Source of the DNA: a virus
Taxonomy: Duplodnaviria > Caudoviricetes
Virus record (IMG/VR): IMGVR_UViG_3300028864_000017
Strand: one strand, 5' to 3'
DNA: 64,000 nucleotides
The position numbers and the translations under genes were made by a program. The notes beneath the pieces are model-generated. The model did not search any database, was not told where the DNA came from, and worked only from the letters and a program-made list of their open reading frames with translations. Below, piece by piece: positions 52,107-54,219 of this stretch. Within the stretch, counting starts at the first letter, position 1; every line of letters begins with the position of its first letter.

Positions 52107-52179
52107 GGGATATAGGTCAAATGGTTAAGATGTCACCCCGTCACGGTGCACGGAGCGAGTTCGAATCTCGTATATCCCG
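52107..52179 (+). tRNA. tRNA-Asp(GTC) with C33
   Basis: gggatat/atatccc; loop CCGTCAC; TTCGAAT. Confidence 0.85.
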
Positions 52180-52202
52180 CTTATTATCAAAAAATTAAAA
52201 AT

Positions 52203-52290
52203 GCATTGGTTGCTTTAGTCGGTCGAAAAGTCTGGTCTGTTAAACCAGTAAGAGTAATCTTCAACGTAGGTTCGAATCCTATCCAGTGCG
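52203..52290 (+). tRNA. tRNA-Asn(GTT) with long variable arm
   Basis: gcattgg/ccagtgc; ctggt-CTGTTAA-accag; aaga-GTAA-tctt extra arm. Confidence 0.85.
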
Positions 52291-52296
52291 CAAAAA

Positions 52297-52368
52297 GGGA
52301 GTGTAGCTCAAAGGTAGAGCGTTTCGCTGTTAACGAAAGTGTTGGGATGTCGCAATTCCCCACTCCCG
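52297..52368 (+). tRNA. tRNA-Asn(GTT) with atypical T loop
   Basis: gggagtg/cactccc; tttcg-CTGTTAA-cgaaa; T loop ATGTCGCAAT lacks TTC. Confidence 0.8.
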
Positions 52369-52448: not shown

Positions 52449-53273
52449 ATGGAAAGCATTAAAACTAAAATATTATCATTAAGAAAAGAAGGAAAAACAT
52501 ACAATGAAATATCAGAATTATTAAATTGTTCAAAAGGTACAATATCTTATCATTGTAAAAAATTATATAATAATATTGAATTAAATAAAAAAAACACAAA
52601 ATTATCAAATTTAAAAAAATTAAAAAATATACCAAATATAGATTTTGGTGATGAGATATCTGATGAGATTTTTAAAAAAGTTATTGAATATCGAATAAAT
52701 GGTAATACATATGAAGAAATAATAGAAAAAACTAAATTATCTTTAGATAAAATTAAAAAAATATGCAGATTAAATAATATCAATGATGGTAATTATAAAA
52801 AAAATAATTATTGTAAAATATATGAAAACGTTAATAATGATGACGTTATTGAAATGCAAAAATACTATGATGAATGTAAAAGTACAAGAAAAGTATCTAA
52901 AAAATTCAATATTGGTAGATATCAAATATCTAAAATTTTAATTATAAATAAAAAAGAAAAATTATCTAAAGAAGAGTATAAAATAAAAAGAAAAAATGAT
53001 ATTGTAAATAATGTTATTAGTTGGAGAAAAGATAAAAAAAGGAAACTTGTTGAATATAAAGGAGGAAAATGCGAAAGGTGTGGATATGATAAATGTATAG
53101 ATGTATTTGATTTTCATCATAAAGATCCTACTCAAAAAGATTTTGGAATAAGTGCAAAATCTTATTCATATGAAAGATTAAAAAAAGAAGTTGATAAATG
53201 TATGTTAGTGTGTAAAAATTGTCACACAGAAATACATTATGAAATAAAAAATAAAAATGGTTCTGGCGCATAA
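52449..53273 (+). CDS. HTH plus HNH endonuclease (homing-endonuclease-like) inside the tRNA array
   Basis: N-terminal HTH repeats; CERCGY ... FDFHHKDP ... KCMLVCKNCHTEIH. Confidence 0.88.
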   Translation: MESIKTKILSLRKEGKTYNEISELLNCSKGTISYHCKKLYNNIELNKKNTKLSNLKKLKNIPNIDFGDEISDEIFKKVIEYRINGNTYEEIIEKTKLSLDKIKKICRLNNINDGNYKKNNYCKIYENVNNDDVIEMQKYYDECKSTRKVSKKFNIGRYQISKILIINKKEKLSKEEYKIKRKNDIVNNVISWRKDKKRKLVEYKGGKCERCGYDKCIDVFDFHHKDPTQKDFGISAKSYSYERLKKEVDKCMLVCKNCHTEIHYEIKNKNGSGA

Positions 53274-53344
53274 CGGCTGGTGTACCTGACTGTCACTCAG
53301 GCTTCTCGTAAGGGATATAGGGAATTCGACTTTCCTCAGAACCG
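53259..53344 (+). tRNA. tRNA-Asp(GTC) with long variable arm
   Basis: ggttctg/cagaacc; cctga-CTGTCAC-tcagg; tctc-GTAA-ggga extra arm. Confidence 0.85.
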
Positions 53345-53354
53345 CAAAGATAAT

Positions 53355-53529: not shown

Positions 53530-53601
53530 TGCCGAAGCTTAGTGGAAAAGAGATTTCTCTCATAAGGAAATCCAAATGAGTTCGAACCTCATATTCGGTA
53601 C
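53530..53601 (+). tRNA. tRNA-CAT (Met or Ile2)
   Basis: tttct-CTCATAA-ggaaa; atgag-TTCGAAC-ctcat; acceptor register slightly irregular. Confidence 0.75.
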
Positions 53602-53667
53602 AGAGTTTATTATTATGACTAGTATCATACTAATAGTATGTTATGATTAATAAAAATAAACTAAAAT

Positions 53668-53741
53668 AGTCTTGTATATCAGTCGGTTAGATTGTCATCC
53701 TGATAAGATGGAGGTCGTGAGTTCAAGTCTCACCAGGACTA
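53668..53741 (+). tRNA. tRNA-Ile(GAT)
   Basis: agtcttg/caggact; tcatc-CTGATAA-gatgg; TTCAAGT. Confidence 0.9.
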
Positions 53742-53752
53742 CTAAATAACAT

Positions 53753-53829
53753 TGGTGAATATACCCTCTGCCTGATAAGTAGTAGAAAGGTTAATTGGTC
53801 ACATGTGGGTTCAATTCCCACTTCACCAA
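53753..53829 (+). tRNA. Non-canonical D-arm-less tRNA-Ile(GAT)-like RNA
   Basis: tggtgaa/ttcacca; only 7 nt before the anticodon arm ctgc-CTGATAA-gtag; 21-nt insert with AAGGTTAATTGGT; gtggg-TTCAATT-cccac. Confidence 0.75.
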
Positions 53830-53842
53830 CAATAAAAAACAC

Positions 53843-53921
53843 ACTGTCGTATCCCCACTGGCTTATATCCAGTCATTAACAAGGTAATTGGTGTATGAGG
53901 GTTCAAGTCCCTTCGGCAGTA
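53843..53921 (+). tRNA. Non-canonical D-arm-less tRNA-Ile(TAT)-like RNA
   Basis: actgtcg/cggcagt; 7 nt then actgg-CTTATAT-ccagt; 23-nt insert with AAGGTAATTGGT; gaggg-TTCAAGT-ccctt. Confidence 0.75.
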
Positions 53922-53934
53922 CAATAAACAACAA

Positions 53935-54059
53935 GGTAGTGTAACTCAAAAGCACAAAGGGGATAATTATGAAACTAGAATAAATAATTTGAAACGAGCG
54001 AAGGATAGAGTGCTGGGCCGATGTCTCAGAAGTTGATGGTTCGAGTCCATCTGCTACCA
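53935..54059 (+). tRNA. tRNA-like gene (GAT) with ~55-nt D-loop insertion
   Basis: ggtagtg/tgctacc; D stem actc/gagt; ctggg-CCGATGT-ctcag; gatgg-TTCGAGT-ccatc. Confidence 0.65.
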
Positions 54060-54067
54060 CAAAAATA

Positions 54068-54151
54068 TGTGATTAATATGACACAGGTAGTCATGTCAGT
54101 ATGTAAAACTGATCTCTTCGGAGGTTGTGGGTTCGAGCCCAACTAGTACCA
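54068..54151 (+). tRNA. Degenerate tRNA-Tyr(GTA)
   Basis: atgac/gtcat D stem, tcagt-ATGTAAA-actga, ctc-TTCG-gag, TTCGAG; acceptor stem poorly paired. Confidence 0.55.
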
Positions 54152-54219
54152 CAAAAAATATTTAATACAATTTATATTATTTATATAATTATCACTATTT
54201 ATATATAAATAAAAAAAAT

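What the first reader, a model, noticed from the sequence alone, without database searches (positions are those of the whole stretch)
53753..53921. Two tRNA-Ile genes with a rearranged, D-arm-less architecture
SEEN: both have a 7-bp acceptor stem, a canonical T arm and a 7-nt anticodon loop (GAT and TAT). Only 7 nt (TATACCC / TATCCCC) separate the acceptor and anticodon arms. A 21-23-nt segment carrying AAGGT(T)AATTGGT sits where the variable loop should be. The two share this layout although their stems differ in sequence. INFERENCE: the 5' TA(C/T)CC pairs with the 3' GGT(T)A, and the D-loop-like TTGG has moved 3' of the anticodon arm, rebuilding an L-shape by a different topology. Such RNAs could escape structure-specific tRNases. 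The UAU species could read AUA without lysidine. Standard cloverleaf scanners would probably score these poorly.
Basis: partly seen in the sequence, partly recalled or inferred. Interest (0 to 1): 0.82.

Follow-up and report, generated by a model that had tools for sequence, protein, structure and literature searches.

The report
Phage isoleucine tRNAs with rewired D-arm
These two genes in a giant peat phage are most likely working isoleucine tRNAs whose D-arm pieces are all present but joined in a different order, a non-cloverleaf layout shared by well over a hundred phage tRNA genes that tRNA finders mostly miss and that I could not find described.

Summary
Window 53753-53829 (anticodon GAT) and 53843-53921 (TAT) each have an intact acceptor stem, T arm and anticodon arm. 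Only 7 nt lie between the acceptor and anticodon arms, and a 21 or 23-nt segment with a D-loop-like motif follows the anticodon arm.

They are not broken genes. Pattern scans and a covariance model found more than 130 distinct relatives on viral contigs. These include 77 cultured Streptomyces phages, such as Mildred21.

In 109 distinct Ile sequences a 3-bp helix pairs connector nt 4-6 with the 3 nt before T-A-R-(Y)n-G-G. It is 98.9% paired, with compensatory changes at all three pairs. The strongest covarying column pair in the alignment lies in this helix. The 15:48 (Levitt) pair covaries too.

Read in tRNA numbering, the order is 8-9, 22-25, 26, anticodon arm, 44-45, spacer, 10-13, 14-21, 48, T arm.

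The same layout carries Arg anticodons, and then position 20 is A, the bacterial ArgRS determinant. Ile members have U20 and A73.

ARAGORN misses both genes. Rfam's tRNA model scores gene 1 at 31 bits and does not report gene 2.

Expression, charging and the reason for the rewiring were not tested. This scan has noted the class before on other DNA. I found no paper or Rfam family for it.

The parts
53753..53829 (+). Gene 1: rewired tRNA-Ile, anticodon GAT (53774-76), 77 nt, CCA not encoded
   Evidence: R1 88.6 bits; Rfam tRNA 31.1 bits with the D arm deleted; not called by ARAGORN
53843..53921 (+). Gene 2: rewired tRNA-Ile, anticodon TAT (53864-66), 79 nt, CCA not encoded
   Evidence: R1 74.1 bits; no Rfam tRNA hit at E<=10; not called by ARAGORN
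53760..53766 (+). Gene 1 5' connector: U8 A9, then T-ACC read as D-stem 3' strand (nt 22-25), then C26
   Evidence: Alignment columns 8-14; columns 11-13 pair with 44-46
53784..53788 (+). Gene 1 spacer AGAAA, read as N44, G45 and three A's
   Evidence: N-G-A-A-A is conserved across the 77-nt subtype; the numbering is inference
53789..53792 (+). Gene 1 GGT-T, read as D-stem 5' strand (nt 10-13); GGT pairs with ACC at 53763-65
   Evidence: Family-wide covariation: pair 12-45 is CG55 GC26 UA24 AU2 UG2; top MI pair in the alignment
53793..53804 (+). Gene 1 relocated D-loop AATTGGT (A14 A15 U16 U17 G18 G19 U20), then C-A-C-A and T48
   Evidence: The motif varies as A-R-(Y)1-4-G-G-N like real D loops; the 15:48 columns covary AU88 GC16
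53850..53856 (+). Gene 2 5' connector: U8 A9, T-CCC (nt 22-25), C26
53874..53881 (+). Gene 2 longer spacer CATTAACA (79-nt subtype)
   Evidence: Subtype shared with L001, L015, L024, L055, L167 and with Arg-UCU members
53882..53885 (+). Gene 2 AGG-T (nt 10-13); GG pairs with CC at 53853-54; A10 faces C25 as a mismatch
   Evidence: The model alignment marks the mismatch; relatives of the same subtype have three full pairs
53886..53896 (+). Gene 2 relocated D-loop AATTGGT, then G-T-A and T48
53668..53742 (+). Ordinary cloverleaf tRNA-Ile(GAT) 11 nt upstream of gene 1; context, showing that the GAU species is duplicated in two architectures
   Evidence: ARAGORN; Rfam 58 bits

Best explanation
Both genes encode elongator tRNA-Ile, one with anticodon GAU (reads AUU/AUC) and one with UAU (reads AUA). 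They belong to a phage-borne class of tRNAs with a rewired core.

All parts of a normal tRNA core are present, but the chain visits them in a different order:
1. acceptor 5' strand
2. U8, A9
3. D-stem 3' strand (nt 22-25)
4. nt 26
5. anticodon arm
6. nt 44-45 plus a short A-rich spacer
7. D-stem 5' strand (nt 10-13)
8. D-loop (A14, R15, Y16-17, G18, G19, N20 ... A21)
9. Y48
10. T arm and acceptor 3' strand

The D-stem therefore forms as a 3-bp helix (plus a U.U) that encloses the anticodon arm instead of closing a hairpin.

Inferred, not shown:
- The helix stacks on the anticodon stem as in a normal tRNA.
- G18 and G19 dock on the T loop to make the elbow.
- U8-A14 and R15-Y48 form as usual.
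- Each new junction (9 to 22, 45 to 10, 21 to 48) links nucleotides that are neighbours in the canonical L-shape.
- Host RNase P, the CCA-adding enzyme, IleRS, EF-Tu and the ribosome would then see a near-normal shape.

The tRNAs would serve a 25% GC genome in which Ile is 9.6% of codons and ATA is 43% of Ile codons. Why the rewired form is kept beside an ordinary tRNA-Ile(GAU) is not known.
For: Family:
- Two pattern scans of viral contigs, neither of which constrains the helix, returned more than 100 loci. A structural scan of all loci gave 138 distinct sequences.

Helix and tertiary pairs in 109 distinct Ile members, not selected on the helix:
- Columns 11-13 with 44-46 are 98.9% paired, with compensatory changes at all three pairs.
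- Whole-structure pairing is 91.6%, against 40-48% when partners are slid by 1-3 columns, and 0/500 shuffles reach it.
- RNAalifold predicts the helix unaided.
- In a structure-free mutual-information scan, 12-45 is the top pair of the whole alignment. Pairs 13-44, 11-46 and 15:48 rank among the top 16, alongside the classical stems.
- The Levitt columns read AU 88, GC 16, other 5.

D-loop behaviour:
- The relocated motif varies as real D loops do: TAATTGG, TAACTGG, TAGTTGG, TAGCGG, TAATGG.

Identity elements:
- Ile-anticodon members have U20 in 111/112 and A73 in 112/112.
- Arg-anticodon members of the same layout have A20 in 26/26.
- These match the bacterial determinants listed in PMC9976931, Table 1.
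- In an Arg set not selected on the helix, 23/29 have all three pairs, in at least 7 different combinations.

Demand and setting:
- ATA is 43% of Ile codons.
- The genes sit 11 and 13 nt apart inside a tRNA array.

Cultured phages:
- Gene 1 matches 77 Streptomyces phage records at about 90% identity over its core.
- Mildred21 carries four rewired tRNAs: Ile-GAU, Arg-UCG, Arg-ACG and Arg-UCU.
Against: - There is no expression, end-maturation, CCA-addition or charging data. No RNA run holding this DNA was listed.
- The three-dimensional fold is inferred from sequence patterns only.
- Gene 2 has just two Watson-Crick pairs in the helix (C25.A10 mismatch), so it may be a weaker or impaired copy, although the same sequence recurs on three other contigs (L030, L038, L059).
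- Gene 1's anticodon stem has a U.U and a G.U.
- Gene 1 has U12-A23 but lacks other E. coli IleRS determinants: C4-G69, C29-G41, G16.
- A working ordinary tRNA-Ile(GAU) next door makes gene 1 look redundant for plain decoding.
- Some family members have two U.U mismatches in the acceptor stem (L003 group).
Confidence: 0.8

Rival explanations
1. The rewiring is an adaptation for escape. The RNA decodes normally, but it is no longer a substrate for host tRNA-targeting nucleases or modifiers that read the D-arm or elbow side, or for a phage enzyme that removes host tRNA. This refines the best explanation rather than excluding it.
For: An ordinary and a rewired tRNA-Ile(GAU) sit side by side here and both occur in Mildred21, which suggests they are not equivalent. 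The class was found almost only on viral contigs or phage-like contigs in metagenome-assembled genomes. Phage tRNAs that evade tRNA-targeting defences are documented (PMC10264068, PMC11555353; listed, abstracts only read).
Against: No nuclease that targets tRNA-Ile or tRNA-Arg through the D arm was identified here. For several anticodons the rewired gene is the phage's only copy (Mildred21 Arg-UCG, ACG, UCU), which fits plain supply just as well. The documented evasion cases act through anticodon-loop changes, not core changes.
Confidence: 0.2
2. These are tRNA mimics that are not used in translation: decoys for tRNA-binding defence proteins, sponges for synthetases, or regulatory RNAs.
For: The architecture is not standard. 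The window's array holds several other odd tRNA-like genes.
Against: Anticodon loops keep U33 and a purine at 37. Anticodons are confined to Ile and Arg. Position 20 and the discriminator track the anticodon as the synthetase identity rules predict. The 12-bp acceptor/T branch is intact. A decoy would not need that coupling.
Confidence: 0.1
3. The genes are precursors that RNA processing (splicing, or circularisation and cleavage as for permuted tRNA genes) turns into an ordinary cloverleaf.
For: An earlier first-reader note on this window (unchecked) says RtcB is encoded in it. Neighbouring tRNA-like genes carry insertions.
Against: Restoring the normal order would need excision and re-insertion of a 12-nt segment. 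No bulge-helix-bulge or intron-like motif flanks it. The junctions themselves are conserved (TAT-NNN-C; NGAAA-NNN-T). The acceptor halves are already in normal order.
Confidence: 0.03
4. The genes are decaying tRNA pseudogenes.
For: Standard finders miss them. Gene 2 has a mismatch in the short helix.
Against: More than 130 distinct sequences keep all stems through compensatory changes. Conservation reaches from a 25% GC peat phage to Streptomyces phages.
Confidence: 0.02

Closest known systems
Canonical bacterial and phage tRNA-Ile (Rfam RF00005), e.g. the window's own gene at 53668-53742
   Same: 7-bp acceptor stem, 5-bp T stem with a TTCRANY loop, 7-nt anticodon loop with U33 and A37, A73, U8, A14, R15, G18G19, U20 and Y48 are all present. 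The same anticodons are used.
   Different: There is no D hairpin between nt 9 and 26. The D-stem 5' strand and the D loop are encoded after the anticodon arm, so the D-stem encloses the anticodon arm. Nucleotides 46-47 appear to be absent. The Rfam score is 31 bits or none, against 47-60 bits for the neighbouring tRNAs.
D-arm-lacking mitochondrial tRNAs (metazoan mt tRNA-Ser(AGY), nematode and mite tRNAs; PMC4013460, PMC4394434; listed, abstracts only read)
   Same: On paper both are a three-way junction with a short 5' connector and an anticodon helix extended by extra pairs.
   Different: By established knowledge, the mitochondrial forms are shortened, lack the G18G19 elbow contact and need adapted mitochondrial factors. 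Here the length is normal (77-83 nt), the full D-loop consensus and the 15:48 pair are kept, and the setting is a bacterial translation system.
Class II tRNAs with a long variable arm (bacterial Leu, Ser, Tyr)
   Same: There is a long segment between the anticodon arm and the T arm.
   Different: Class II tRNAs keep a normal D arm, and their extra segment is a self-contained hairpin. Here the segment pairs with the 5' connector and carries the D loop.
Circularly permuted and split tRNA genes (Cyanidioschyzon merolae, Nanoarchaeum; reviewed in PMC4033280; listed, abstract only read)
   Same: The gene order of tRNA segments departs from the cloverleaf.
   Different: In those cases the mature tRNA is an ordinary cloverleaf after processing, and the break lies between the gene halves. 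Here the acceptor halves are in normal order and the mature RNA itself is predicted to be rewired.
tRNA-like mimics (YrlA-type Y RNAs, plant-virus tRNA-like structures, the tmRNA tRNA-like domain)
   Same: An L-shape is built with non-standard connectivity.
   Different: Those lack a decoding anticodon arm with isotype-matched identity elements. The weak YrlA match in the array region lies at 52244-52349 and scores 23.8 bits against a cut-off of 69; it does not overlap these genes.

Membership tests
tRNA (functional elongator; RF00005 cloverleaf) | 7-bp acceptor stem plus 5-bp T stem with a T-loop consensus | tested here: met
   Family-wide covariation in both stems.
tRNA (functional elongator; RF00005 cloverleaf) | Anticodon arm with a 7-nt loop, U33 and a purine at 37 | tested here: met
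   Loops CTGATAA and CTTATAT. The stem covaries.
tRNA (functional elongator; RF00005 cloverleaf) | D arm as a hairpin between nt 9 and 26 | tested here: not met
   Only 7 nt separate the acceptor and anticodon stems. The Rfam alignment deletes the D arm.
tRNA (functional elongator; RF00005 cloverleaf) | Core tertiary set: U8-A14, R15-Y48, G18G19 facing the T loop | tested here: inconclusive
   All these residues are present and conserved, and 15:48 covaries (AU88/GC16). No structural data are available.
tRNA (functional elongator; RF00005 cloverleaf) | Processed, CCA-ended and aminoacylated | not testable with these tools
   No RNA run was listed as holding the DNA. CCA is not encoded.
tRNA-Ile identity (bacterial IleRS set, PMC9976931 Table 1) | Anticodon GAU or UAU (or k2C-AU), A37, A73, U20 | tested here: met
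   Both genes have them. In the family A73 is 112/112 and U20 is 111/112. Determinant list.
tRNA-Ile identity (bacterial IleRS set, PMC9976931 Table 1) | C4-G69, U12-A23, C29-G41, G16 | tested here: not met
   Gene 1 has U12-A23 only. Gene 2 has none of these (read). These determinants come from E. coli and may not apply to the unknown host.
Rewired-core phage tRNA class (this scan's working class) | Connector T-A-T-NNN-N; NNN pairs with the 3 nt before T-A-R-(N)1-4-G-G; a purine-rich spacer follows the anticodon arm | tested here: met
   Gene 1 has 3/3 pairs. Gene 2 has 2/3.
D-arm-lacking mitochondrial-type tRNA | Loss of the D-loop/T-loop elbow elements and a shortened molecule | tested here: not met
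   G18G19, A14, R15 and a canonical T loop are kept. Length is 77-79 nt.
Class II (long variable arm) tRNA | Normal D arm plus a self-paired variable hairpin | tested here: not met
   There is no D hairpin. The extra segment pairs with the 5' connector.

The most novel reading that the evidence does not exclude
The two genes belong to an undescribed, essentially phage-specific class of translating tRNAs (Ile, Arg and possibly others) in which the canonical L-shape is built with swapped strand order. The rewiring would be maintained because it makes the phage's supply of AUA/AUY and AGA/CGN decoders invisible to host, or phage-encoded, enzymes that attack or mark tRNAs through the D-arm side.
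Probability: 0.2. Interest if true: 0.92.

Novelty: new variant of a known kind. Interest (0 to 1): 0.8.

Why it matters
Outside mitochondria the tRNA cloverleaf is treated as nearly invariant. A large natural class with normal-length, identity-bearing tRNAs and a different chain topology would show three things.
- The L-shape tolerates re-threading in a bacterial translation system.
- Phage tRNA inventories, and codon-supply analyses built on them, are systematically incomplete or mis-typed. One member in a RefSeq phage record is labelled tRNA-Phe(gaa) although its anticodon loop reads UCG.
- A ready-made scaffold exists for asking which enzymes read tRNA connectivity rather than shape.

Members occur in cultured Streptomyces phages, so the key experiments are feasible.

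Tried and rejected
- Second helix. I tested a pseudoknot-forming helix between the 3 nt after the anticodon stem and the 3 nt after G19. It is not supported in the subtypes of gene 1 or gene 2. It is supported only in the 82-83-nt subtype (12/13 fully paired, shuffle mean 4.3).
- Single-sequence folding is uninformative: z-scores are -1.7 and -1.1.
- Expression. No RNA holder was listed for the stretch; all holders are peat metagenome DNA runs.
- Phage-encoded partners. No IleRS-type (PF00133) or CCA-enzyme (PF01743) match was found in the 143-kb record. The record is only about 20% complete, so this says nothing.
- Gene 2 has no blastn match among deposited phage genomes.
- The MAFFT alignment of the Arg members (A2) misplaces the 3' strand for 4-nt spacers, so I did not use it for pair counts. 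A script count was used instead.
- Literature. Eight full-text searches and two reviews of non-canonical tRNAs gave no description of this layout. Subscription-only papers were not searched.
- I rejected a minus-strand reading and an alternative cloverleaf for either gene. Neither ARAGORN nor the Rfam model finds a D arm.

Full report
WHAT IS THERE

The window is 24.8% GC. It is part of a 143-kb virus record rated about 20% complete, so the source is a very large phage. Its DNA is held by peat metagenome runs.

Between about 51.5 and 55.9 kb lies a plus-strand tRNA array interrupted by an HNH endonuclease ORF. The flagged stretch holds two genes, 53753-53829 and 53843-53921. They sit 11 nt after an ordinary tRNA-Ile(GAT) at 53668-53742 and 13 nt from each other.

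- 7-bp acceptor stems and canonical T arms;
- 7-nt anticodon loops, CTGATAA and CTTATAT;
- 7-nt connectors, TATACCC and TATCCCC;
- 21 and 23-nt segments carrying (G)GT-T-AATTGGT.

ARAGORN reports neither gene. The Rfam tRNA model scores gene 1 at 31.1 bits by deleting the D arm and inserting 18 nt, and does not report gene 2 even at E<=10.

IS IT A FAMILY?

- A pattern taken from the 3' part only (AATTGGT, a 4-5 nt gap, then the T arm) found 67 viral loci. Apart from a few false positives, and L012/L042/L049 (tRNA-Ile(TAT) genes that keep a normal D arm, see side observations), they had the same layout. Every true member had anticodon GAT or TAT, although the pattern does not constrain the anticodon.
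- A second pattern fixed only TAT, the Ile anticodon loop and the T loop.
- From these I took 109 distinct sequences, selected on the acceptor stem and on an A-R-N(1-4)-GG-T motif but not on any internal pairing, and aligned them (A1).
- A covariance model built from A1 (R1) finds exactly two sites in the window, at 88.6 and 74.1 bits, and nothing more in the rest of the 143-kb record.

STRUCTURE FROM COVARIATION

- In A1, connector nt 4-6 pair with the three nt just before the conserved T-A. This helix, with the U8-A14 pair, is 98.9% paired, and each of its three pairs shows compensatory changes. The middle pair reads CG 55, GC 26, UA 24, AU 2, UG 2.
- The whole proposed structure is 91.6% paired, against 40-48% when partners are slid by 1-3 columns. 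None of 500 shuffles reaches the observed values.
- RNAalifold predicts the helix without being told.
- A structure-free mutual-information scan puts the middle pair of this helix first among all column pairs. The other two pairs are in the top 16, next to the classical stem pairs.
- That scan also ranks the pair formed by the purine after the invariant A and the last nt before the T stem. It reads A-U in 88 sequences, G-C in 16 and other in 5. This is what the R15:Y48 Levitt pair of normal tRNAs does.
- The motif between them varies like real D loops: TAATTGG, TAACTGG, TAGTTGG, TAGCGG, TAATGG, TAATTCGG.

MAPPING ONTO tRNA NUMBERING (INFERENCE)

The order is:
1. nt 1-7
2. U8, A9
3. [U22 N23 N24 N25]
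4. C26
5. nt 27-43
6. N44, G45 and a spacer (AAA in the 77-nt subtype)
7. [N10 N11 N12 U13]
8. A14, R15, Y16-17, G18, G19, N20, one to three further nt, A21
9. Y48
10. T arm and acceptor 3' strand

Compared with a cloverleaf, block 10-21 and block 22-45 have changed places. From textbook tRNA structure, the new joins link residues that are neighbours in the L-shape:
- A9 lies in the groove at 12-23.
- 45 contacts 10-25.
- A21 lies in the layer next to 15:48.

So the fold could be kept. This has not been shown. On paper the RNA is a three-way junction. Its anticodon helix is extended by the 3-bp helix across a 1x5 internal loop. The D loop becomes the single-stranded connector to the T arm.

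In gene 1 the helix is A23-U12, C24-G11, C25-G10. In gene 2 it is C23-G12 and C24-G11, with C25 facing A10. The model marks this mismatch. Relatives of the same 79-nt subtype have three good pairs. Gene 2 recurs unchanged on three other contigs: L030, L038, L059.

I also tested a second helix that would form a pseudoknot, between the 3 nt after the anticodon stem and the 3 nt after G19. It is supported only in the 82-83-nt subtype, not in the subtypes of the two window genes.

ARE THEY tRNAs THAT GET CHARGED?

This was not tested directly, but there is an internal control. A third scan constrained neither the anticodon nor the nt after GG. It returned the same layout with arginine anticodons ACG, TCG, TCT and CCT, and two members with CAT.

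Across 138 distinct rewired genes:
- the nt after G19 is T in 111 of 112 Ile-type members and A in 26 of 26 Arg-type members;
- the discriminator is A in all 112 Ile-type members and varies (A, G or T) in Arg-type members.

A20 is the main bacterial ArgRS determinant. U20 and A73 are listed for bacterial IleRS (PMC9976931, Table 1 and text). In Arg members not selected on the helix, 23 of 29 have all three pairs, in at least seven combinations. So the relocated motif behaves as a D loop that synthetases read. This argues for real aminoacylation and against decoys or pseudogenes.

IleRS and ArgRS are both subclass Ia enzymes (PMC9976931). By textbook knowledge these approach tRNA with the variable-loop side facing solvent, which may explain why extra nucleotides there are tolerated. 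This last point is inference.

The demand is there. In 45 long ORFs of the window, Ile is 9.6% of codons, ATA is 43% of Ile codons, and AGA is 78% of Arg codons.

DISTRIBUTION AND ANNOTATION

- A strict Ile-type pattern over one genome for each of 185,579 prokaryote species gave five hits. All are on contigs of metagenome-assembled genomes. One has the same length as a viral contig already found (362,763 bp). The four I checked lie in multi-tRNA arrays. The class therefore looks phage-borne, but this holds only for the patterns used.
- Gene 1 matches 77 deposited Streptomyces phage genomes at about 90% identity over its core, with no annotated feature under the match.
- In Mildred21 (NC_042008.1) R1 finds four rewired genes:
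  - Ile-GAU at 73703-73779: not annotated; it lies just after the phage's tRNA nucleotidyltransferase gene.
  - Arg-UCG at 91367-91442: annotated tRNA-Phe(gaa).
  - Arg-UCU at 86379-86453: annotated tRNA-OTHER.
  - Arg-ACG at 94857-94933: not annotated.
- ARAGORN misses all four. The Rfam tRNA model gives three of them 29.5-32 bits, just over its cut-off.
- ARAGORN finds 3 of 138 family members, with wrong ends.
- The accurate statement is 'mostly missed, sometimes caught at the threshold and mis-typed', not 'never detected'.

WHAT IS KNOWN

Rfam 15 has no family for these genes. Two reviews of unusual tRNAs (PMC7609411, PMC5389517) do not mention the layout. Eight full-text searches found nothing on it.

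Notes of this same scan show that the class was flagged before on other DNA, mostly as Arg-UCU genes of coliphages and jumbo phages, with the same reading. One of those notes says a later check of the same claim elsewhere found that part of it fell, without saying which part. For that reason I limit the claims on 'phage-only', 'undetected' and 'undescribed' to what was tested here.

VERDICT

The functional ideas (nuclease escape, lysidine-free AUA reading) remain open.

Best reading, about 0.8: two working tRNA-Ile genes of a rewired-core phage tRNA class. Gene 2 is the less certain of the two because of its weakened helix. Why the rewiring is kept is unknown. I put escape from tRNA-directed enzymes at about 0.2.

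SIDE OBSERVATIONS

The array holds several other non-standard tRNA-like genes. The viral scans also turned up an abundant 89-nt tRNA-Ile(UAU) class that has both a normal D arm and a long variable region carrying the same ATAATTGG motif. It may bear on how the rewired form arose.

Noticed in passing
window 53668-53742: An ordinary cloverleaf tRNA-Ile(GAT) lies directly upstream of the rewired tRNA-Ile(GAT). The same doubling (cloverleaf plus rewired Ile-GAU) occurs in Streptomyces phage Mildred21.
   Followed up: partly
window 53531-53603: A tRNA with anticodon CAT (Met, or Ile via lysidine) is not called by ARAGORN and falls just under the Rfam cut-off (27.5 bits against 29). With the next three genes it may form a four-gene isoleucine block.
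   Followed up: no
window 53259-53346: A tRNA-like gene with acceptor, T arm, GTC (Asp) anticodon loop and a long extra arm of about 17 nt. It overlaps the last codons of the HNH ORF. No Rfam tRNA hit.
   Followed up: no
window 52107-52368: Three odd neighbours. 52107-52179 has anticodon GTC but apparently C at position 33. 52204-52289 is a tRNA-Asn(GTT) with a long variable arm. 52297-52368 is a second Asn(GTT) whose T loop is GTCGCAA. ARAGORN misses the first and third.
   Followed up: no
window 52449-53273: A 274-aa ORF inside the tRNA array. Its 3' part resembles HNH endonuclease genes of Lak, Klebsiella, Erwinia and other large phages.
   Followed up: no
window 53935-54152: Two further tRNA-like elements with T arms, and 3' ends reading ACCACA.
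   Followed up: no
window, 45 ORFs of 150 aa or more: Stop codons are TAA 39, TGA 6, TAG 0. This may just reflect 25% GC, but it could be checked for TAG reassignment.
   Followed up: no
L012:2880-2968 (-), and about 50 distinct relatives in L176-L282: An abundant 89-nt viral tRNA-Ile(TAT) class. It has a normal D arm, an anticodon stem with an A.C next to the loop, and a 22-nt variable region with invariant CAACAGATAATTGG, the same D-loop-like motif as in the rewired class. ARAGORN calls it tRNA-Ile. It is a possible evolutionary intermediate.
   Followed up: partly
L067:6622-6713; L027:7151-7244; L175:11809-11885; L148:6052-6128: Variants of the rewired layout: a 92-nt Ile-TAT with an extra hairpin after the relocated D loop, a Tyr(GTA)-like gene with the D-loop motif inside a long variable arm, and two CAT-anticodon members.
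   Followed up: partly
L005, L017, L026, L029, L032, L047, L048, L066, L080, L100, L131, L144, L168 (82-83-nt Ile-TAT subtype): In this subtype the 3 nt after the anticodon stem are complementary to the 3 nt after G19 (GGA/TCC, GCA/TGC, CCA/TGG). Twelve of 13 are fully paired, against a shuffle mean of 4.3. This helix crosses the rewired D-stem, so it would form a pseudoknot.
   Followed up: partly
NC_042008.1 91367-91442 (L299:5368-5443): A RefSeq feature labelled tRNA-Phe(gaa) is a rewired tRNA whose 7-nt loop CTTCGAA gives anticodon TCG (Arg). 86379-86453 is labelled tRNA-OTHER and reads Arg-TCT.
   Followed up: yes
L246, L268, L286 (Arg members with connector T-G-G-C and GCA before TAATTGG); L180, L230, L274 (GCC/AGC): A minority of Arg members show only 2 of 3 pairs in the standard register. 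They may use a shifted register.
   Followed up: no
alignment A1, columns 32 and 60: The first nt after the anticodon stem covaries with the nt three before Y48 (C-G 22, U-A 8, G-C 5, mostly A.A otherwise). It is a possible extra tertiary contact, so far unexplained.
   Followed up: partly
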